A DNA stretch of 63,989 nt, filler included, from a bacterium (GTDB lineage Bacteria; UBA9089; CG2-30-40-21; SBAY01): assembly GCA_040757115.1 (NCBI GenBank). It is 5 parts of 5 records of this genome, joined end to end, with 100 filler letters (N's around TTAATTAATTAA, not from the genome) between each part and the next. Parts side by side here need not be neighbours in the genome. Positions count along the whole stretch, not along the records: positions 1 to 26,595 come from JBFLYA010000030.1; 4 more parts are not named here. One strand, given 5' to 3'. Under the pieces are notes generated by a model, which worked only from the letters and a program-made list of their open reading frames with translations, made no database searches and was not told the DNA's origin. The position numbers were made by a program, and so were the translations under genes. Of this stretch, positions 7,348 to 52,750 are shown one piece after another; position 1 is the stretch's first letter, and the number at the start of each line of letters is the position of its first letter.

Positions 7348-7932
7348 TCAGTTTAACATATCCAGTGGACTTTGTACTCCCATCCCACCCTTATTGATAA
7401 CATGTGTATAAATCATGGTCGTGGATACATCCTTATGACCGAGTAATTCTTGCACGGTGCGAATATCATATCCTTTCTCCAGCAGGTGTGTAGCAAAGCT
7501 ATGTCGAAATGTATGAGGGCTGACTGGTTTTGAAAGACCAACGGCACGAGCAGCACTATAGATTGCTCTTTGCAGCCCACTTTCATTGACATGATGCCGA
7601 TGCATCTTGTCACTACGCGGGTCTTTAGATATCTTCTTTGATGGGAAAACATATTGCCAACCCCATTCTTTACCTGCATTAGGATATTTCCGCTCTAACG
7701 CAAAAGGCAGATGTACCTCTCCAACACCATTCTTGAGGTCTTGTTCATGCAATGCCTTAACCCGTTTTAGATGTTCTGATAGCAATGGTTTTAAACTTTC
7801 CGGTAGCATAGTTACTCTATCCTTCATTCCTTTTCCATCTCGCACAATCACTTGATTCCGAGCAAAATCAATATCCTTAACCCGCAAACGAATACATTCC
7901 ATCAATCGTAGTCCACAGCCGTAAATAAGTTT
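7348..7932 (-). pseudogene. intI: Integron integrase, N-terminally truncated
   Basis: [10 protein letters not shown], integron-specific [24 protein letters not shown] insert, [23 protein letters not shown]; upstream part replaced by an element starting at 7934. Confidence 0.9.
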
Positions 7933-7933
7933 C

Positions 7934-8119
7934 CACCTGTGCAATTAGAAATAAAAGGATAATTGATTAAACAGATTACATTTTTTATTGTAAGCGGATT
8001 AAACGGATTGAGCGGATTTTTTTTATTTCTTTTTCCGCTAAATCCGTTAAATCCGCTTACTAAATCCACCCGCTTACTATTAAAAATCTGCTTCCTTAAT
8101 TTTCTACCTGCACAGGTCG
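7934..8119. mobile_element. MITE-like element (CCACCTGTGCAATTAG ... CTACCTGCACAGGTCG) with inverted 9-mer arms
   Basis: Imperfect terminal IRs; related end CTAATCGCACAGGTGG at 45544-45559. Confidence 0.55.
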
Positions 8120-9743: not shown

Positions 9744-9869
9744 CAATTCGTTACAGTTGACGGCGGGGGACTGTGCCGTGGTCAAAGTTTTGTGGTCTCT
9801 CAAAGTTTTATCTTGCTATCAAACTTTTGTGGTAATTCTCCCCGCCGCACCTGAACTTTATCGTTAGAA
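9738..9869 (+). repeat. attC
   Basis: GCCTAAC...GTTAGAA. Confidence 0.9.
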
Positions 9870-10105: not shown

Positions 10106-10345
10106 ATGGTTCAGGTTAGTGTAGATGAAATAAAACAAGATATATCGGTTTATCTTCCGTGTGTAGAAGTTGGAGAGACAGTTGTTATTATGAAGGAAGG
10201 TAAACCTCTGGCAGAATTCAAACCTGTTACTTCGACTTCTAAACGGCTACGACCCTTTGGATTATGCAGTGGAGAATTTATTGTGCCAAATGACTTTGAT
10301 GCTCCATTGCCAGAAAGTATCATTCAGGAGTTTGAAGGACAATGA
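10106..10345 (+). CDS. Phd/YefM-like antitoxin
   Basis: GETVVI..GKPLAE..RPFGL..VPNDFDAPLP. Confidence 0.8.
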   Translation: MVQVSVDEIKQDISVYLPCVEVGETVVIMKEGKPLAEFKPVTSTSKRLRPFGLCSGEFIVPNDFDAPLPESIIQEFEGQ

Positions 10346-10740
10346 AACTACTTTTGGATACCCATATCTTTCTCTGGTTCATTAGCGGGGACAAACGATT
10401 ACCAGAAGGTATGCGAGATACCATTCGTGATCCTAATAACGAAGTCTACTTGAGTGTTGTGTCGCTATGGGAAGCGATCGTTAAATACCAGATAGGTAAA
10501 CTTTCCTTGCCTCAACCACCAAATGTCTATTTACCAATCCAACGCCAAAAACACCAAATAGATAGTTTATCTCTGGATGAAGCCAGTGTGTCTCAACTTG
10601 CTAATCTTGCTAAAATTCACCATGACCCATTTGATCGTATGCTGATTTGTCAAGCAATGGAACACGGTTTAACAATTGTTAGAGTAGATGATACCATTTG
10701 TAATTATTCTGTTTCTGTTCTAAACCGCATCTTAAAGTAG
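10342..10740 (+). CDS. vapC: VapC/PIN toxin
   Basis: LLLDTHIFLW, SLWE, HHDPFDRMLICQA. Confidence 0.9.
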   Translation: MKLLLDTHIFLWFISGDKRLPEGMRDTIRDPNNEVYLSVVSLWEAIVKYQIGKLSLPQPPNVYLPIQRQKHQIDSLSLDEASVSQLANLAKIHHDPFDRMLICQAMEHGLTIVRVDDTICNYSVSVLNRILK

Positions 10741-10903: not shown

Positions 10904-11035
10904 GTCTAACCCTGCATTGCAGTTGACGGCGGGGGACTCTGCCGTGGTCAAAGTTTTGTGGTCTCTCAAAGTTTTATCTTGCTATCAAACTTTTGTGGTA
11001 ATTCTCCCCGCCGCACCTGAACTTTATCGTTAAGC
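10904..11035 (+). repeat. attC
   Basis: GTCTAAC...GTTAAGC. Confidence 0.9.
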
Positions 11036-11572: not shown

Positions 11573-11782
11573 ATGAATGCTATAGAATTTCAAACCACAG
11601 TCAAGAACAATATCATTGAGATTCCTCACAGATACCTCAGCAATCTCACGAAGCGCGTGCGTGTGATCTTGCTGGTTGAAGGAAACAAACCTGCTGTGAA
11701 TTTCATTGATGAATTACTTGCACATCCTGTGCAAGTAAAAGGTTTTCGTTCTTTAACGAGAGAAGAAGTCTATGCCAGATAA
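11573..11782 (+). CDS. Putative antitoxin upstream of PIN toxin
   Basis: MNAIEFQTTVKNNIIEIP..LTREEVYAR; overlaps PIN gene. Confidence 0.7.
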   Translation: MNAIEFQTTVKNNIIEIPHRYLSNLTKRVRVILLVEGNKPAVNFIDELLAHPVQVKGFRSLTREEVYAR

Positions 11783-12200
11783 CGAACGCACAACTTGCTT
11801 CATTGATACGAATATCTGGCTATATGCCTTTATCGAAGGGGATGACTCAACCAAATCGGGAATAGCACGCGCGCTGATTCAAGAAACGGCACCTATGCTT
11901 AGTACACAGGTGATCAACGAAGTATGTGTCAACTTGCTGAAGCAAGCCAACTTTACCGAAGAACAAGTATGCCAACTCATCGAGTCGTTCTATGAGAAAT
12001 ACGTCGTTACTGAGTTAAACAAGTCAGTGCTATTGACTGCGTCGCAACTTCGCCAGCAGTATTCCTTGTCCTTTTGGGACAGCACGATTATAGCAAGTGC
12101 ACTCAGTGTGGGTGTTCCCATTCTATATTCCGAAGACTTGCAAGAGGGATTAATTATTGAAAGGCGACTTAAGGTGCTCAATCCATTCGGACAGAGATAG
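11772..12200 (+). CDS. PIN-domain toxin
   Basis: FIDTNIWLY, STQVINE, SFWDSTII, LYSEDLQ. Confidence 0.88.
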   Translation: MPDNERTTCFIDTNIWLYAFIEGDDSTKSGIARALIQETAPMLSTQVINEVCVNLLKQANFTEEQVCQLIESFYEKYVVTELNKSVLLTASQLRQQYSLSFWDSTIIASALSVGVPILYSEDLQEGLIIERRLKVLNPFGQR

Positions 12201-12292: not shown

Positions 12293-12424
12293 GTCTAACC
12301 CTGCGTTGCAGTTGACGGCGGGGGACTGTGCCGTGGTCAGAGTTTTGTGGTCTCTCAAAGTTTTATCTTGCTATCAAACTTTTGTGGTAATTCTCCCCGC
12401 CGCACCTGAACTTTATCGTTAGAC
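12293..12424 (+). repeat. attC
   Basis: GTCTAAC...GTTAGAC. Confidence 0.9.
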
Positions 12425-15948: not shown

Positions 15949-16054
15949 GTGAAATTTGATGAAATATCTAATAAAGTTAGCAAATATTAAAGTTGGCTTG
16001 TTGATAAATTTCAATGTAGAAAGTTTGAAAAAAGGCATAAAAAGATTTGTCTTG
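15949..16054 (+). pseudogene. Internally deleted GxxExxY-family gene
   Basis: MKFDEISNKV joined out of frame to KLANIKVGLLINFNVESLKKGIKRFVL; flanked by CACGAA / CTTCGTG inverted arms. Confidence 0.7.
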
Positions 16055-16443
16055 TCCAATCTTCGTGACCTTCGTGCTCTTCGTGATGAATAGTTACATA
16101 AATCTTTTTATTATCTCTAAAATATAAAAGTATTATACCAGACCTTGATTATGTAGAAATAAGAAGAAAAGACGGCGAAGTGGAATTTTTACTTAATCAA
16201 TCGCTGATCCTGACCGTAATACGTCAGTTATTTGGGGGAATGAACATTAACCTGCGGAGGACAGAGCAATGAAAATAGTAGGCAAGTAGGTAGTAGGGAA
16301 GTAGGAAAGGGATAAAGGATGTGCACGGTATTCCTCTTCTGGGGGCAATGTCTCCCCCTTTCCTACTTTCCTACTCTCCTACTTCCTACTTTCAGGAGAA
16401 TCCCCCATTTCAGTGACGCATTACTCCTGACCGATTTTTTCAC

Positions 16444-16478: not shown

Positions 16479-16739
16479 ATGGCAAAGGTTGAAGAAATTA
16501 TTACCCGTATGAAGCGGAATCCTAACGATATCCGATTCAGTGAGTTGTGCAAGGTATGTAATTACTACTTTGGAAAATCTCGTCAGAGTAGTAGTAGTCA
16601 CCGAGTATATAAAACTCCATGGCAAGGTAATCCACGGATTAACATACAAAATAATAAAGGAAAAGCTAAAACATACCAAATAAAACAGGTCATTTTAGCT
16701 ATTGAAAGATTGGAGGTAGAACATGGCCATAAAAAATGA
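16479..16739 (+). CDS. HicA-like toxin
   Basis: NPNDIRFSEL..SSHRVYKTPWQGNPRINIQ..KAKTYQIKQV. Confidence 0.8.
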   Translation: MAKVEEIITRMKRNPNDIRFSELCKVCNYYFGKSRQSSSSHRVYKTPWQGNPRINIQNNKGKAKTYQIKQVILAIERLEVEHGHKK

Positions 16740-17139
16740 TCGTTATACCTATCGAGTAACATGGTCAGAGGATGATAATGAATATGTTGGTTTATGTATA
16801 GAGTTTCCAGGTTTGAGTTGGCTTGCTAAAACTTCTGAAGATGCCTTAAAAGGGATACAGAGATTAGTTGCTGATGTTATAAAAGATATGTTTGAAAATG
16901 GTGAAACTATACCTAATGCAATATCCTGTAAACAGTATAGTGGTAAATTTATGGTACGCGTCCCACCTGAAGTTCATCGGAAGCTTGCAATTAAGGCGGC
17001 AGAATCAGGAGTCAGTTTAAATCGGTTTGCCAGTTCAAAATTAAGTCAAGGAGTTGAATTGAAATCAGACTTTGGTTATGGAATACAGGAAAAATTAGGA
17101 AGGAAGGAAAAAAGACGGCGAAGTGGAATTTTTACTTAA
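16723..17139 (+). CDS. hicB: HicB antitoxin (RHH), C-terminus extended into attC tail
   Basis: EFPGLSW..YSGKFMVRVPPEVHRKLA..GVSLN. Confidence 0.85.
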   Translation: MAIKNDRYTYRVTWSEDDNEYVGLCIEFPGLSWLAKTSEDALKGIQRLVADVIKDMFENGETIPNAISCKQYSGKFMVRVPPEVHRKLAIKAAESGVSLNRFASSKLSQGVELKSDFGYGIQEKLGRKEKRRRSGIFT

Positions 17140-20874: not shown

Positions 20875-21062
20875 AGGCTGGGCAGACAAGAAGAAGGATG
20901 AGTTATTCCTGTTGGAAGTTTTGGTGAGAATATTTGCTCCTTTAGTGGACTATACCAGGACTGCGAGATTGATGCTTTCCTGAAAGAGTTGCTTATTCCT
21001 TAGAAGCAACAGGGGGAGGCTAAGAGGGGCTACTGAAAGGTGATAGTTAAGTAAGATAGAGG

Positions 21063-21429
21063 GTAACTATTCAGCATACCAAGCAAGTAGGAAGTAGGAA
21101 GTAGGAAAGTAGGAAGTAGGAAGAGGGGAAAATACTTCATACTATTTTACTCTTAATTGATTTGATTAAACCTATAAGCATCCTACTCACTTCTTCAGAT
21201 ATATCCCAAATGGATTGAAAATCTGGCAGATAATTAAGATCTTTAGATAGAATTAGATAATACCTTTCTTACTTTCCTACTCTCCTACTTCCTACTTTCA
21301 GGAGGAAATAGTAGGCAAGTAGGTAGTAGGAAAGGGATAAAGGATGTGCACGGTATTCCTCTTCTGGGGACAATGTCTCCCCTTTCCTACTTCCCTACTC
21401 TCCTACTTTCCTACAGGCTGAATAGTTAC
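21063..21429. mobile_element. MITE with GTAACTATTCAG TIRs, 8-bp TSD GATAGAGG, GTAGGAA arrays and four-helix-bundle relic
   Basis: TSD at 21055-21062 and 21430-21437; near-identical copy at 40653-41122. Confidence 0.9.
21137..21265 (-). pseudogene. C-terminal relic of four-helix-bundle (23S-IVP/Avd-like) protein
   Basis: RYYLILSKDLNYLPDFQSIWDISEEVSRMLIGLIKSIKSKIV*. Confidence 0.7.
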
Positions 21430-21471
21430 GATAGAGGAAGTAAAAAGAAAGAGACGGCGAAGTGCAGCTTT

Positions 21472-21603
21472 TTCTAACCCTTCGCTGCACCTGACTGCGG
21501 GGGACTGTGCCGTGGTCAGAGTTTTGTGGTCTCTCAAAGTTTTATCTTGCTATCAAACTTTTGTGGTAATTCTCCCCGCCGCACCTGAACTTTATCGTTA
21601 GCT
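21472..21603 (+). repeat. attC
   Basis: TTCTAAC...GTTAGCT. Confidence 0.9.
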
Positions 21604-34968: not shown

Positions 34969-35533
34969 GTAACTATTCAGCCACAGATGGACACGGATGA
35001 AACACTAAAAATTCGGTGGTGTCTGAAAATAACTCTAATAGTGAAATCTATGCAGATTTGGTGTCCAAAAGGGATTTCCTCCAAAGAGCAAAATGCAAAA
35101 AGCAAATATAAAAATTACATATCAAAATGTAAAATTATCTCTTTCCTTTCAGCGTTAAAATACTTGAAGCAAAGATATTACCAAATTCCTCCAACTCTTT
35201 GAGAAATCCTGTTACTTCCTCTTTGAAATTTGATTTGTAATTTTGCATTTTGATATTTAATATTTGATATTTATTTGTTGTCTCCCTCAAATCCTATTTT
35301 GCAGAACCCTATACACTATTTTAACCTTTATGCTAGATTAAGACACCACTAAAAATTCATGAATCGTGTCCGGTATCCGTGTCCGTTTGTCCTTTGCCTT
35401 CTACCCTCTGCCCTCTACCCTCTGCTATTTATCCGTGCTAATCCGTGTTAATCAGCGGTTGAATAGTTATTTTATTTCTATATTTTCTCTGTTCCTCTGC
35501 GTCTGTGCGGTAAAGGACTACCTGAACGGTTAC
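34969..35533. mobile_element. Nested MITE cluster including a GGTGGTGTCT element at 35014-35350
   Basis: GTAACTATTCAG start, TGAATAGTTA and CTGAACGGTTAC ends; inner element near-identical to 39945-40300. Confidence 0.8.
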
Positions 35534-39109: not shown

Positions 39110-39863
39110 GTAACCATTCAGCCACAGAGGCACAGAGTTCACAGAGAATTAGAGAAATTAGCTACAAATGGACACGAATTAACCTCTGACATTCGATAAA
39201 TGTAGTGCGAACCTTATTGCTTTTTCATAAATAGGTTCCTCTTTTGGGGAGAGCGATAGCAAGAAGAACTTTAATGTAAATATCAAAATGCAAATATCAA
39301 AATTACAATGCAAAATGCAAAAATACTTGTAAATTAACAAAGTAGCTGGAGAATATTTTGATTTTTGATTTGTAATTTTACATTTTGATGTTTGATTTTT
39401 AATTTATTTTATGGTATTCCAGAAAAGTGGAAGTTAATTTTGCAAAAACCATTAGGTTCGCTTTCCTGCTTGCCAGAAGCGAGGCTAAAGCCTCGCACTA
39501 CAAATCTTTTTATTCGTGTTCATTCGTGGTTAGTAACTATTCAGCCACAGATGGACACGGATGAAACACTGAAAATTCGTAATCCGTGTCCGTTTTCCGT
39601 GTCCGTAATTAGGCTGAAGAGTTTTTCTCCTTTTGACTTTTATCTTCTATCCTTCTTGATTCTCTGCCAGTGGAGGAAATTTCCACCCCCTAACCCCCGC
39701 CAGCGGGGGACAACCCGCCTCTGCCCTCTGCCCTCTGCTCTCTGCCCTCTATCCTCTGCCCTCTGTATTTATCCGTGCTAATCCGTGTTAATCAGTGGCT
39801 GAATAGTTACCGTGGTTATATATTCCCTCTGTGTTCTCTGTGACTATATCCCTGAACGGTTAC
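39110..39863. mobile_element. Outer MITE (TSD AAAATTAT) with nested elements at 39217-39451 and 39533-39810
   Basis: TSD 39102-39109/39864-39871; inner TSD CGTGGTTA 39525-39532/39811-39818; TTA duplication 39214-39216/39452-39454. Confidence 0.9.
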
Positions 39864-39944: not shown

Positions 39945-40300
39945 GGTGGTGTCTGAAAATAACTCTAATAGTGAAATCTATGCAGATTTGGTGTCCAAAA
40001 GGGATTTCCTCCAAAGAGCAAAATGCAAAAAGCAAATATAAAAATTACATATCAAAATGTAAAATTATCTCTTTCCTTTCAGCGTTAAAATACTTGAAGC
40101 AAAGATATTACCAAATTCCTCCAACTCTTTGAGAAACCTTGTTACTTCCTCTTTGAAATTTGATTTGTAATTTTGCATTTTGATATTTATATTTGATATT
40201 TAATATTTGCTATTTGATATTTATTTGTTGTCTCCCTTAAATCCTATTTTGCAGAACCCTATACACTATTTTAACCTTTATGCTAGATTAAGACACCACC
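39945..40300. mobile_element. MITE with GGTGGTGTCT TIRs, 8-bp TSD CAAATCTG, four-helix-bundle relic at 40065-40136 (-)
   Basis: TSD 39937-39944/40301-40308; relic FLKELEEFGNIFASSILTLKGKR*. Confidence 0.88.
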
Positions 40301-40652: not shown

Positions 40653-41122
40653 GTAACTATTCAGCATACCAAGCAAGTAGGAAGTAGGAAGTAGGAAAGG
40701 GGGAAAATACTTCATACTATTTTACTCTTAATTGATTTGATTAAACCTATAAGCATCCTACTCACTTCTTCAGATATATCCCAAATGGATTGAAAATCTG
40801 GCAGATAATTAAGATCTTTAGATAGAATTAGATAATGCCTTTCCTACTTTCCTACTCTCCTACTTCCTACTTTCAGGAGGAAATAGTAGGCAAGTAGGTA
40901 GTAGGAAAGGGATAAAGGATGTGCACGGTATTCCTCTTTTGGGGACAATGTCTCCCCTTTCCTACTTTCCTACTTTCCTACTCTCCTACTTCCTACTTTC
41001 AGGAGGAAATAGTAGGCAAGTAGGTAGTAGGAAAGGGATAAAGGATGTGCACGGTATTCCTCTTCTGGGGACAATGTCTCCCCTTTCCTACTCTCCTACT
41101 TTCCTACAGGGTGAATAGTTAC
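40653..41122. mobile_element. Second copy of GTAGGAA/four-helix MITE, TSD CATTAGAC
   Basis: TSD 40645-40652/41123-41130; internal ~120 bp module duplicated relative to the 21063 copy. Confidence 0.9.
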
Positions 41123-42087: not shown

Positions 42088-42334
42088 GTAACCGTTCACC
42101 GCAGAGACGCAGAGAAAAAAATTAAAAACTATTTGTCATACGTTTCATTCCATCTTTGATTTTCATCAGAGCAAACTTTTTAGGATTGACATATCATAAT
42201 TGATTAACAAATTTGGTTTTGATGTCCTATGTATTACAAAGATTACCTCAATAATCTTTTCTGTGATCTGATTTATTTCTATGTCTTCTCTGTTTCTCTG
42301 CGTCTCTGCGGTAAATTACCACCTGAACGGTTAG
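42088..42334 (-). mobile_element. MITE with GxxExxY relic (inverted copy of 52457 element)
   Basis: GTAACCGTTCAC...CTGAACGGTTAG; flanks ATTTTTCG/ATTTTTCC; relic EINQITEKII...DGMKRMTNSF*. Confidence 0.75.
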
Positions 42335-42382: not shown

Positions 42383-42743
42383 TGGTGGAGGCGGCGGGAA
42401 TCGAACCCGCGTCCGAAGATACAAAGACATAAGCCTCTACACATCCATTGTCTGAGATTTTAGTTTTCACTTCCTTAATCTCCTCTCAGACAGGATACAA
42501 AGGAAATTAGCTTATTTTTTCTCGCTACTTTTGCCCAAGCAAAGCAATAAGTAACCAGTCTGTTAAACTAACACCCTTAATAATTCTACAGACAAGAATT
42601 ATCAGGATGTGCTGCTAAATTAAGCAGCAAGTGCCAGATCGTAGTTGGCGTTTATTGGTTTTGCTGTCTGTTTAACGAGGCCTGACAGCACCTCGGGATG
42701 CAACCTATATTTTGTTTATCTCCGTCGAACCCTTTTCGCCCCC
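42383..42743 (-). ncRNA. ssrA: tmRNA; tag peptide (A)ANYDLALAA*
   Basis: 5' GGGGGCGAAAAGGGTTCGAC, 3' T-arm and CCACCA; tag ORF 42620-42649. Confidence 0.95.
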
Positions 42744-52456: not shown

Positions 52457-52750
52457 GTAACCGTTCAGGTGGTAATTTACCGCAGAGACGCAGAGGAACA
52501 GAGAAGATATGGAAATAAATCAGATAACAGAAAAGATTATTGGTATAGCCATTGAAATACTTAGGACCTGCTTGCCGAATGTTCAGCCGGCAAGCCAGAT
52601 TTGTTAATCCATCCCTGATTTTCATCAGGGCAAGTTTAATGTTGTTGGACTCAAGAGCTTGCACTGATGAAAATCAGGGATGTTAAGCCTATCGTCCATA
52701 AATTTTAATTTTCTTCTCTGCGTCTCTGTGTCTCTGCGGTGAACGGTTAC
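52457..52750 (+). mobile_element. MITE (TSD AAGAAAAG) with GxxExxY relic and inner palindrome, nested in an older element from 52416
   Basis: TSD 52449-52456/52751-52758; MEINQITEKIIGIAIEI at 52509; IR TCCCTGATTTTCATCAG/CTGATGAAAATCAGGGA. Confidence 0.88.

What the first reader, a model, noticed from the sequence alone, without database searches (positions are those of the whole stretch)
21055..21437. Mobile elements built from inverted short-tandem-repeat arms around four-helix-bundle and GxxExxY relics
Seen: elements with GTAA(C/G)(T/C)(A/G)TTCA termini and exact 8-bp target duplications at 21063-21429 (GATAGAGG), 40653-41122 (CATTAGAC), 39110-39863 (AAAATTAT), 39533-39810 (CGTGGTTA) and 52457-52750 (AAGAAAAG). 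Their interiors are unrelated but share one design: a degenerate 7-9-nt tandem array followed by its inverted counterpart. Where coding relics survive, heptamer arms surround four-helix-bundle C-termini (21137-21265, 40.7 kb; also 35135, 40065, 43141). The 8-9-mer arms surround GxxExxY termini (15949, 42.1-42.3 kb, 52509). Known: the 23S-IVP four-helix bundle is structurally related to Avd, the RT accessory of DGRs, and GxxExxY is a predicted PD-(D/E)xK-type protein. Inference: an undescribed selfish system in which these small genes travel with, and perhaps generate or recognise, their own repeat arms, and are further spread by a trans-acting transposase.
Basis: partly seen in the sequence, partly recalled or inferred. 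Interest (0 to 1): 0.88.

Follow-up and report, generated by a model that had tools for sequence, protein, structure and literature searches.

The report
Mini-transposons carrying hairpin gene cassettes
Short transposons that rely on an IS66-type enzyme encoded elsewhere have picked up and multiplied decayed copies of two small gene cassettes that sit between mirror-image arrays of 7-9-base repeats; the transposon part is ordinary, while the cassette design is widespread and still unexplained.

Summary
GTAA(C/G)YRTTCA occurs 25 times in the window against 0.26 expected. All five listed elements have exact 8-bp target duplications.

There are two layers.

1. The ends are IS66-family ends. A 1505-bp element in a same-order genome carries exactly GTAACCGTTCA at both ends around a 476-aa IS66 transposase. 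The nearest genome G001 has 856 such ends against 2 for the control pattern. Three window insertions, two of them with these ends, are empty sites in G001.

2. The interiors are decayed "IVS-like" cassettes.
- In G001, 16 of 17 intact four-helix-bundle genes and 15 of 17 intact GxxExxY genes lie between a tandem-word array and its inverted copy.
- The arm period is 7 in 14 of 17 four-helix-bundle cassettes and in 0 of 17 GxxExxY cassettes.
- Intact genes are mostly outside the terminal repeats. Relics are mostly inside them.

Whether the proteins make or recognise their arms was not tested. No RNA data were available.

This scan has met the same cassette design before on other DNA. What is new here is the IS66 vehicle. 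My verdict is a new variant of a known kind.

The parts
21055..21062 (.). Left copy of the 8-bp target duplication GATAGAGG
   Evidence: The site is present once, with no insert, in G001:C196.
21063..21429 (.). 367-bp non-autonomous IS66-type element (MITE). It has GTAACTATTCA ends, AAGTAGG heptamer arms and their inverse, and a four-helix-bundle gene relic.
   Evidence: RNA fold z = -7.4. Bases 1-204 are 93% identical to the gene-bearing copy L018.
21140..21268 (-). Relic of the last ~42 codons of a four-helix-bundle (TIGR02436) gene
   Evidence: TIGR02436 E = 0.0016, 18.6 bits, below the 24-bit cut-off. 97.6% identity over 42 aa to L018.
21430..21437 (.). Right copy of the target duplication GATAGAGG
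40653..41122 (.). 470-bp copy of the same family. It carries an internal 126-bp tandem duplication (40839-41107) and has the target duplication CATTAGAC.
   Evidence: The orthologous site in G001:C246 holds CATTAGAC once, with no insert.
40715..40843 (-). Four-helix-bundle C-terminal relic, the same as at 21140-21268
   Evidence: TIGR02436 E = 0.0045. The DNA is 97% identical to L018.
39110..39863 (.). 754-bp composite element. It is a 242-bp 'shell A' MITE with GTAACC(A/G)TTCA ends and CACAGAG word arms, holding two later insertions. Target duplication AAAATTAT.
   Evidence: Alignment to the plain shell copy L121; L122, L124 and L125 are further plain copies.
39215..39451 (.). 237-bp gene-less cassette with heptamer-type inverted arms. 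It sits in the loop of the shell's central hairpin (GCGAACCT / AGGTTCGC).
   Evidence: The same insert lies in the same loop but in the opposite orientation in G001:C204, L096.
39533..39810 (.). 278-bp nested MITE with GTAACTATTCA ends and CACGGAT / CCTCTGC word arrays. Target duplication CGTGGTTA.
52457..52750 (.). 294-bp MITE with GTAACCGTTCA ends, CGCAGAGA octamer arms and a GxxExxY N-terminal relic. Target duplication AAGAAAAG.
   Evidence: 94.9% identical over 294 bp to a copy in L052. Its ends match the gene-bearing element L034.
52476..52604 (+). Relic of the start of a GxxExxY gene together with its upstream arm
   Evidence: 90% identity over 31 aa to L034 and L035. No NCBIfam match at E <= 1.
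42088..42334 (.). 247-bp copy of the 52457 family in inverted orientation. One end has 1 mismatch. Target duplication ATTTTTCG / ATTTTTCC.
   Evidence: Relic 42169-42315(-) is 58% identical over 52 aa to L034.
15953..16097 (+). GxxExxY C-terminal relic followed by a CTTCGTG word arm and a right GTAACTATTCA end (16087-16097)
   Evidence: TIGR04256 E = 3.3e-5. Local profile E = 7.6e-6..
39945..40300 (.). 356-bp element of a second MITE class with GGTGGTGTCT / AGACACCACC ends and the 8-bp duplication CAAATCTG. It carries heptamer arrays and a doubtful four-helix-bundle relic (40068-40199, minus strand).
   Evidence: Absent from the orthologous G001:C246 site. The relic match is weak.
34969..35533 (.). 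Rearranged nest: a 39533-type MITE interrupted by a copy of the GGTGGTGTCT-ended element (about 35016-35349, flanking duplication AAAAATTC). No clean outer duplication.

Best explanation
The elements are non-autonomous transposons (MITEs) of the IS66 family.

A single-ORF IS66-type DDE transposase, encoded elsewhere in the genome, recognises the roughly 11-12-bp ends GTAA(C/G)YRTTCA(G). It cuts the element out or copies it, and inserts it with an 8-bp staggered cut.

The cargo is a second, older module. This is a small cassette made of a four-helix-bundle (TIGR02436) or GxxExxY (TIGR04256) gene lying between an array of tandem 7-9-nt words and the inverted copy of that array. In its free form the cassette sits inside co-directional gene strings. 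It resembles the ORF-bearing intervening sequences of 23S rRNA.

Some cassettes came to lie between IS66-type ends. Once there, the gene was dispensable for movement and decayed, and the shortened hairpin-shaped derivatives multiplied to hundreds of copies.

Shown: the ends, the target duplications, the empty sites, the matching autonomous element in a relative, the gene-arm association, and the intact-outside / relic-inside pattern.

Inferred: that this particular transposase moves them, the order of events, and that the arms act as an RNA or DNA hairpin.
For: Ends and duplications.
- 25 ends in the window against 0.26 expected, with 5 perfect 8-bp duplications.
- IS66 elements are described as having terminal repeats that start GTAAGCG and 8-bp direct repeats (passage read in PMC11946415).

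Matching autonomous elements.
- L065 (G007, same order): 1505 bp, exact GTAACCGTTCA at both ends, a 476-aa ORF with DDE_Tnp_IS66 (E = 4e-39) and zf-IS66.
- L064 (G008): GTAACTACTCA ends around a 541-aa IS66 transposase.
- L003 (G001): a C-terminal transposase fragment 73 bp from a GTAACTGCTCA end.

Abundance.
- G001 has 856 ends against 2 for the control pattern.
- 22 of 24 same-phylum genomes have 7-856 ends. All 16 genomes from other phyla have 0-4.

Recent movement.
- Empty sites in G001 for 21063-21429, and for 40653-41122 and 39945-40300.
- Of 20 facing end pairs picked only by proximity, 7 had perfect duplications.

Cassette layer in G001.
- The inverted-arm score exceeds the 95th percentile of 97 control ORFs for 16 of 17 four-helix-bundle genes and 15 of 17 GxxExxY genes (Mann-Whitney p about 1e-10 for each).
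- Period 7 in 14 of 17 against 0 of 17 (Fisher p = 1e-6; paralogues are not independent).
- 21 of 22 upstream and 26 of 27 downstream neighbouring ORFs are on the same strand as the cassette gene.
- dN/dS is 0.03-0.09 for four GxxExxY pairs, and the D...ExK motif is kept in at least 15 of 17.

Capture and decay.
- 7 of 34 intact genes have at least one IS66-type end within 450 bp, against 23 of 26 relics.
- 9 relic-bearing elements and one 563-bp element with an intact GxxExxY gene (L041) have perfect duplications.
- The window MITEs align to gene-bearing copies L018 and L034.
Against: - No complete IS66 transposase with these ends was found in the window or in G001. The window check covered 10 large ORFs. 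G001 gave only a fragment.
- The window's own assembly is not held, so genome-wide numbers come from G001. G001 shares 24% of sampled 31-mers with the window, and orthologous stretches are 98-99% identical.
- The three transposase-bearing copies (L064, L065, L066) lack target duplications.
- Three end-rich genomes (G012 with 613 ends, G019 with 183, G003 with 175) gave no PF03050 match. All are fragmented assemblies.
- The shared end is only about 11-12 bp, shorter than the 20-30 bp quoted for IS66.
- 13 of 20 sampled end pairs had no perfect duplication: 12 with four or more mismatches and one that could not be scored because it ran off its contig.
- In one genome of another phylum (G028), only 1 of 12 cassette genes passed my arm-score threshold, although tandem words are visible by eye around most of them.
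- Transposition has not been shown experimentally.
Confidence: 0.75

Rival explanations
1. The cassettes are the primary mobile units and aim at hairpin loops. MITEs are hairpins and so act as landing pads. They become vehicles only secondarily. This is compatible with the best explanation for the outer layer, but it reverses who captured whom.
For: - A 237-bp gene-less heptamer-arm cassette sits exactly in the loop of shell A's central hairpin in the window.
- The same cassette sits in the same loop, but in the opposite orientation, in G001:C204.
- At the orthologous AAAATTAT site, the window and G001 (99% identical flanks) share the shell but hold different inner cassettes.
- Two unrelated MITE classes (GTAAC ends and GGTGGTGTCT ends) both carry tandem-word arms.
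- All 17 short, gene-less MITEs among the 20 facing end pairs sampled (picked from those listed, in G001, G008 and G009; the three longer pairs, L114, L118 and L120, aside) have word arms directly inside their ends.
Against: - Inversion by recombination between the hairpin stems, or gene conversion between MITE copies that share outer arms, would give the same pictures without loop targeting.
- No clear target duplication or conserved ends were found for the inner insert.
- No mechanism or enzyme is identified. The four-helix-bundle protein has no known catalytic activity.
Confidence: 0.35
2. The tandem-word arms are subterminal binding sites for the IS66-type transposase. On this view they belong to the transposon, not to a separate cassette.
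For: In MITEs the arms directly abut the ends, for example end + C + CGCAGAGA words in L054-L060. Together they make a long extended inverted repeat.
Against: - The words differ completely between families that share the same ends: AAGTAGG, CACAGAG, CGCAGAGA, CACGGAT, GGAGAT.
- The transposase-bearing elements L064 and L065 have no such arrays inside their ends.
- 27 of 34 intact cassette genes have arms but no IS66-type end within 450 bp.
Confidence: 0.07
3. The GxxExxY PD-(D/E)xK protein is itself the mobility enzyme, acting as a homing endonuclease or transposase, and is responsible for the insertions and 8-bp duplications.
For: - The D...ExK motif is conserved and the genes are under strong purifying selection.
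- Many paralogues per genome: 75 matches in G001.
- One intact gene lies in an element flanked by a perfect duplication, L041.
Against: - The same ends and duplications flank four-helix-bundle relics, gene-less elements and IS66 transposase genes.
- Most intact GxxExxY genes (12 of 17) have no such ends nearby.
- This explanation gives no account of the four-helix-bundle cassettes.
Confidence: 0.05
4. The four-helix-bundle genes are Avd-type accessory factors and the arrays are made by a reverse transcriptase, as in a diversity-generating retroelement.
For: - One G001 contig (C189) has an RT fragment next to a weak four-helix-bundle match and a sequence that looks like a variable region.
- The Avd / S23p structural kinship is recalled, not tested here.
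Against: - Only 2 RVT_1 matches in G001, against 38 four-helix-bundle and 75 GxxExxY matches.
- No RT lies next to any of the 34 intact cassettes other than on C189.
- The arms are inverted tandem words, not a template / variable repeat pair.
Confidence: 0.03

Closest known systems
IS66-family insertion sequences, single-ORF type, and the MITEs derived from insertion sequences
   Same: - The ends begin with GTAA(G/C)(C/T)(G/A).
- 8-bp target duplications.
- A DDE_Tnp_IS66 + zf-IS66 transposase lies in elements with the identical end.
- Non-autonomous short copies far outnumber the autonomous ones.
- Empty and filled sites occur between close relatives.
   Different: - Apart from one 579-bp element (L076), the MITEs are not internal deletions of the insertion sequence.
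- They share only about 12 bp with it, and their interiors are unrelated hairpin cassettes with gene relics.
- One element carries an intact passenger gene (L041).
- That the single-ORF type corresponds to the ISBst12 subgroup is recalled, not tested.
ORF-bearing intervening sequences (IVS) of 23S rRNA, e.g. Coxiella burnetii (PMC4990558)
   Same: - A four-helix-bundle (S23p) ORF preceded by tandem heptamers and closed by terminal inverted repeats that form a long stem (passages read).
- Copy number of the heptamers varies between strains.
- No promoter of its own is evident. Here the cassettes lie co-directionally inside gene strings.
   Different: - The location is between protein-coding genes or inside MITEs, not in 23S rRNA helices.
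- Tens of copies per genome.
- A second gene family (GxxExxY) uses the same design with 8-10-nt words.
- RNase III processing is shown for the IVS but is untested here.
REP / REPIN elements with their RAYT transposase
   Same: A gene flanked by short inverted repeat units that also occur as many gene-less hairpin copies across the genome.
   Different: - The genes here are not Y1 (IS200-like) transposases.
- They are multi-copy.
- The repeats are tandem arrays that differ for each gene copy rather than one genome-wide REP sequence.
- This comparison rests on recall plus the listing. No RAYT search was run.
Short tandemly repeated heptamers (STRR) of heterocystous cyanobacteria
   Same: Intergenic arrays of degenerate heptamers, often in many sequence families within one genome.
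   Different: - The organism here is not shown to be a cyanobacterium. Its genes include mcsB/clpC-type genes, and its nearest genome has flagellar genes.
- The link to flanked genes and to IS66 ends is not part of the STRR description, as far as I recall.

Membership tests
IS66-family non-autonomous element (MITE) | Terminal inverted repeats beginning GTAA(G)CG-like | tested here: met
   GTAA(C/G)YRTTCA at both ends of all five elements. 25 exact copies in the window against 0.26 expected. Family description from a passage in PMC11946415.
IS66-family non-autonomous element (MITE) | 8-bp target-site duplication | tested here: met
   5 of 5 listed elements have perfect duplications. 7 of 20 sampled end pairs and 10 elements in G001 loci also have perfect duplications.
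IS66-family non-autonomous element (MITE) | No transposase inside the element; an autonomous element with the same ends exists | tested here: met
   The interiors are 278-754 bp and hold only relic peptides. L065 is 1505 bp with exact GTAACCGTTCA ends around a DDE_Tnp_IS66 ORF, in a same-order genome. In G001 itself only a fragment was found, L003.
IS66-family non-autonomous element (MITE) | Evidence of movement (filled against empty sites) | tested here: met
   Precise empty sites in G001 for 21063-21429 and 40653-41122.
IS66-family non-autonomous element (MITE) | Mobilisation by the IS66 transposase in trans | not testable with these tools
   This needs a transposition assay.
ORF-bearing 23S rRNA intervening sequence (IVS) | Inserted in helix 25 or helix 45 of 23S rRNA | tested here: not met
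   The only Rfam match in the window is tmRNA. The elements lie between protein-coding genes.
ORF-bearing 23S rRNA intervening sequence (IVS) | S23p / four-helix-bundle ORF | tested here: met
   The parent copies in G001 match TIGR02436 with E down to 7e-37. The window holds only C-terminal relics. The GxxExxY cassettes do not meet this feature.
ORF-bearing 23S rRNA intervening sequence (IVS) | Terminal inverted repeats that form a stem around the ORF | tested here: met
ORF-bearing 23S rRNA intervening sequence (IVS) | Excision from the transcript by RNase III | not testable with these tools
   No RNA run was listed.
Diversity-generating retroelement (Avd + RT + TR/VR) | Reverse transcriptase gene next to the four-helix-bundle gene | tested here: not met
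   2 RVT_1 matches in G001 against 38 four-helix-bundle matches. Only contig C189 has both together.
REP / RAYT system | IS200-like Y1 transposase flanked by its REP units | not tested
   The flanked genes belong to TIGR02436 and TIGR04256. No search for the Y1 transposase family was run.

The most novel reading that the evidence does not exclude
The four-helix-bundle and GxxExxY genes are the working parts of a widespread, undescribed class of small mobile cassettes, of which the 23S rRNA intervening sequences are only the best-known landing site.

On this reading each cassette travels with its own family-specific tandem-word hairpin: heptamers for four-helix-bundle genes, 8-10-mers for GxxExxY genes. 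It inserts into hairpin loops and into transcribed spacers, in the direction of transcription, and is tolerated there because the hairpin is processed out of the RNA.

In this groundwater lineage the cassettes have in addition colonised IS66-type and other MITEs, which then spread their remains by the hundred.
Probability: 0.3. Interest if true: 0.85.

Novelty: new variant of a known kind. Interest (0 to 1): 0.66.

Why it matters
Three things follow if this reading is right.

1. Fragment excess. It explains why fragments of two enigmatic small-gene families are so common in this lineage. G001 has 38 four-helix-bundle and 75 GxxExxY matches, and about half of the first and three-quarters of the second are pieces. 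The pieces are cargo of an amplified IS66-type MITE superfamily that pervades a whole phylum.

2. A route of movement. It gives one concrete, testable way for cassettes to move whose mobility has been only a conjecture since the rRNA intervening sequences were described.

3. Regularities that need explaining. The cassette layer shows regularities that no published account I could find explains (searches; listings only, apart from the passages read):
- a private inverted word array for each gene copy;
- a word length that goes with the gene family;
- near-obligate co-orientation with the host genes;
- strong purifying selection.

These make two questions directly testable: what the intervening sequences are, and where bacterial heptamer arrays come from. 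Suitable tests are protein-arm binding, RNase III mapping and transposition assays.

Tried and rejected
- Whole genome of the window: not held. All genome-wide figures come from the nearest genome, G001.
- RNA evidence: no RNA holder was listed for window:40250-42100. Only three DNA runs from one study were listed.
Hairpin processing and within-population polymorphism therefore remain untested.
- Wolk et al. 2010 (PMC2950511) on Anabaena insertion sequences and MITEs is not held. Supplements are closed, so the Anabaena sp. 90 MITE table (PMC3542288, Table S4) could not be compared with these elements.
- Cyanobacterium idea: my first guess was a cyanobacterium with Nezha-type MITEs and STRR heptamers. 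I dropped it. The window has mcsB/clpC-type genes, and G001 contigs that carry the same MITEs have flagellar genes.
- Family profiles on relics: NCBIfam matched 3 of 8 peptides, all below the curated cut-offs. My own profiles, built from 16 and 17 G001 proteins, gave E < 0.05 for only 3 relics, plus one unrelated frame. DNA and protein alignment to the gene-bearing copies was decisive instead.
- L001 (IS66-type, GTAATTGTTTAC end) and L002 (another DDE transposase) in G001: neither has the MITE ends.
- dN/dS: 12 pairs were computed. 5 were saturated at silent sites. L012-L015 is unreliable because L012 has an in-frame stop.
- Rfam: tmRNA was the only match at gathering thresholds.
- Cross-phylum check: 5 genomes of other phyla were searched. 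Only G028 carries both families, and there the arm score passed my threshold for 1 of 12 genes.
Full report
OBSERVATION

The window is AT-rich (31-45% G+C) and crowded with short tandem arrays (131 Tandem Repeats Finder rows).

Pairing forward and reverse ends gives exactly the five elements listed, each with a perfect 8-bp duplication, one of them nested inside another. Allowing one mismatch gives 34 ends against about 9 in mononucleotide shuffles, and a sixth element (42088-42334) with a 7-of-8 duplication.

Directly inside nearly every end the sequence runs into tandem 7-9-nt words (AAGTAGG, CACAGAG, CGCAGAGA, CACGGAT, CACGAAG, GGAGAT). The inverse words lie at the other end. As RNA, 21063-21429 folds into one long hairpin, with z = -7.4 against shuffles.

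WHOSE ENDS THESE ARE

- None of the 10 large window ORFs I tested is a transposase.
- The window's own assembly is not held. The nearest genome, G001, is 4.7 Mb in 770 contigs and is 98-99% identical over orthologous stretches. It has 856 copies of GTAACYRTTCAG, against 2 for the backwards control.
- Ends that start GTAA together with 8-bp duplications are the hallmark of IS66 (passage read in PMC11946415).
- A search for DDE_Tnp_IS66 in 40 relatives gave matches in 16.
- In G007 (same order), locus L065 is a 1505-bp element with exact GTAACCGTTCA at both ends around a 476-aa ORF that carries DUF6444, zf-IS66 and DDE_Tnp_IS66.
- L064 (G008) has GTAACTACTCA ends around a 541-aa homologue. L066 (G018) has GTAACTATTCA ends around a decayed copy.
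- G001 itself yielded only a C-terminal transposase fragment lying beside a GTAACTGCTCA end (L003).
- The end motif is a feature of the whole phylum: 22 of 24 same-phylum genomes have 7-856 copies, while 16 of 16 genomes from other phyla have 0-4.

Caveats:
- The three transposase-bearing copies have no target duplications.
- Three end-rich but fragmented genomes gave no IS66 match.
- Only about 12 bp of the end is shared between the insertion sequences and the MITEs.

RECENT MOVEMENT

- In G001:C196 the flanks of 21063-21429 are contiguous, and GATAGAGG is present once. That locus is 89-92% identical to the window, so it may be a paralogous or second-strain copy.
- In G001:C246 (98-99% identical), CATTAGAC is present once where the window has 40653-41122. 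G001 instead has a different GTAAC-ended element a few bases upstream, with its own duplication, ACTTTATT. The window lacks that element.
- A 356-bp element of a second class, with GGTGGTGTCT ends and the duplication CAAATCTG (39945-40300), is also absent from C246.
- Of 20 facing end pairs chosen only by proximity in G001, G008 and G009, 7 had perfect duplications.

THE CARGO

G001 has 38 TIGR02436 (four-helix-bundle) matches and 75 TIGR04256 (GxxExxY) matches. There are 17 full-length genes of each family, one of the four-helix-bundle genes with an in-frame stop.

Arms around the intact genes:
- Reading the flanks of those 34 genes shows the same picture nearly every time. A tandem array of a short word lies just upstream, and the reverse complement of that word is arrayed just downstream. 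The word differs from gene to gene.
- I scored the best local alignment between the 130 nt upstream and the reverse complement of the 130 nt downstream. 16 of 17 four-helix-bundle genes and 15 of 17 GxxExxY genes exceed the 95th percentile (14.6) of 97 control ORFs of at least 200 aa taken from the window and all loci. The control median is 8.0 against family medians of 22.0 and 20.5, with Mann-Whitney p about 1e-10 for each. The highest-scoring controls include the gene at window 61.6-63.8 kb, which lies between two copies of one MITE, and the IS66 transposases with their own ends.

Period and gene family:
- The best period of the upstream arm is 7 in 14 of 17 four-helix-bundle cassettes and in 0 of 17 GxxExxY cassettes. 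The GxxExxY periods are 8-10 in 15 of 17, with single cases of 6 and 12 (Fisher p = 1e-6).
- Several genes are close paralogues (L016/L017, L021/L022, L012/L015, L034/L035, L038/L042/L045), so the effective sample is about 14 per family.
- The window relics follow the same rule: heptamers around the four-helix-bundle relics, and 8-9-mers around the GxxExxY relics.

Orientation and selection:
- The cassette genes sit in co-directional gene strings. 21 of 22 upstream and 26 of 27 downstream ORFs of at least 120 aa within 450 bp are on the same strand. For 12 upstream sides and 7 downstream sides no such ORF was found.
- GxxExxY paralogues are under purifying selection, with dN/dS of 0.03-0.09 in four pairs. 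The LG.G.LE..Y ... D ... E.K motif is kept in at least 15 of 17.

HOW THE TWO LAYERS RELATE

I looked for an IS66-type end (up to 1 mismatch) within 450 bp on each side of the 60 best matches.

| Category | With at least one end | With both ends |
|---|---|---|
| Intact four-helix-bundle | 2 of 17 | - |
| Intact GxxExxY | 5 of 17 | - |
| Four-helix-bundle relics | 11 of 13 | 6 |
| GxxExxY relics | 12 of 13 | 9 |

- One of the two intact four-helix-bundle cases is probably a chance match.
- Among elements with both ends, 5 four-helix-bundle and 4 GxxExxY relic elements have perfect duplications.
- Four intact GxxExxY genes lie between two ends. One of them, L041, is a 563-bp element with a perfect TCCCATTT duplication.

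The window elements are deletion derivatives of such gene-bearing copies:
- 21063-21429 and 40653-41122 align at 93-97% to L018, whose four-helix-bundle gene (TIGR02436, E = 4e-23) runs into the same arm and end.
- The ends of 52457-52750 align at 84-95% to those of L034, a 464-bp element with an intact GxxExxY gene, and over its full length to another relic copy in L052.

I therefore read the system as cassettes that became enclosed by IS66-type ends, lost their genes, and were amplified.

NESTING

- 39110-39863 is a 242-bp 'shell' MITE whose plain copies are L121, L122, L124 and L125. It carries a 237-bp gene-less heptamer-arm cassette in the loop of its central hairpin (39215-39451), plus the nested MITE 39533-39810.
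- The same inner cassette lies in the same loop, but flipped relative to the shell, in G001:C204.
- At the orthologous site, G001:C246 has the shell with a different inner cassette.
- These pictures fit either loop-targeted insertion of cassettes, or inversion and gene conversion between MITE copies. I cannot separate the two.

WHAT IS NOT SHOWN

- Nothing tests whether the proteins bind, cut or build their arms.
- Reverse transcriptase is not generally linked to the cassettes. G001 has 2 matches, one of them on contig C189 next to a weak four-helix-bundle match and a sequence that looks like a variable region.
- In G028, the one genome of another phylum among the five searched that has both families (9 and 8 matches), only 1 of 12 genes passed my arm-score threshold. 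Tandem words are nonetheless visible around most of them. One GxxExxY gene there (L137) lies between GTAACTATTCAG and a 2-mismatch inverted copy.

COMPARISON WITH WHAT IS KNOWN

- The outer layer meets every sequence-level criterion of an IS66-family MITE. It is unusual in that it shares only the terminal roughly 12 bp with the insertion sequence.
- The inner layer is closest to the ORF-bearing 23S rRNA intervening sequences. In Coxiella the S23p ORF is preceded by 2-3 GACAGAT heptamers whose number varies between strains. [quoted passage not shown] Here the location is not rRNA.
- My searches for the family names and for the design found no paper describing such cassettes outside rRNA, and none describing them for GxxExxY (listings only, 3, 12 and 7 papers).
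- Earlier reports of this scan describe the same cassette design in other genomes and phyla. Those are unchecked AI notes. What this window adds is the IS66 vehicle, the intact-outside / relic-inside pattern, and the empty sites.

VERDICT

The finding is a new variant of a known kind: an IS66-type MITE superfamily whose cargo is IVS-like cassettes. The cassette layer remains an open and interesting problem.

Noticed in passing
window 7348-7944 (-), and about 9.7-21.6 kb: A truncated tyrosine recombinase (Phage_integrase, E = 1e-36) faces a run of small same-strand genes: PIN at 10342-10740 and 11772-12200, and HicB at 16723-17139. These genes are separated by a recurring imperfect-palindrome element of about 150 bp that contains a 19-nt repeat (9782-9833, 10948-10999, 12337-12388, 21516-21567). 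It looks like a chromosomal integron with attC-like sites. The MITE at 21063 sits just before one of those sites, and the same element precedes GxxExxY cassettes in G001:C760 (L043, L044).
   Followed up: partly
window 42383-42743 (-): A tmRNA gene (208.6 bits), the only Rfam match in the window. The 42088-42334 MITE lies 48 bp from it.
   Followed up: no
G001:C189 (L037, L105): A layout like a diversity-generating retroelement. A sequence resembling a lectin-fold variable region is followed by an inserted GxxExxY cassette, a weak four-helix-bundle (Avd-like) match (E = 3.6e-4) and an RT fragment.
   Followed up: partly
window 39945-40300 and about 35016-35349: A second MITE class with GGTGGTGTCT / AGACACCAC(C) ends and 8-bp duplications (CAAATCTG, AAAAATTC). 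It also carries heptamer arrays. Its transposase was not sought.
   Followed up: partly
L137 (G028:C11, another phylum): An intact GxxExxY gene lies between GTAACTATTCAG and a 2-mismatch inverted copy, in a genome that has only two such motifs in all. This hints either at transfer of an IS66-ended cassette between phyla or at an old association.
   Followed up: no
window 40839-41107: A 126-bp unit, consisting of an inner hairpin and one arm of the MITE, is tandemly duplicated (2.1 copies, 98% identical). This accounts for the size difference between 40653-41122 and 21063-21429.
   Followed up: partly
L009 and L014 (G001:C761, C29): A repeat of about 23-37 nt recurs immediately outside the cassette arms in these loci, in the style of a CRISPR repeat or REP unit. 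Its nature is unknown.
   Followed up: no
window 61488 (-) and 63866 (+): Two ends with identical 45-nt inner sequence face outward on either side of the 773-aa FG-GAP repeat gene. Two copies of one MITE family therefore bracket that gene.
   Followed up: no
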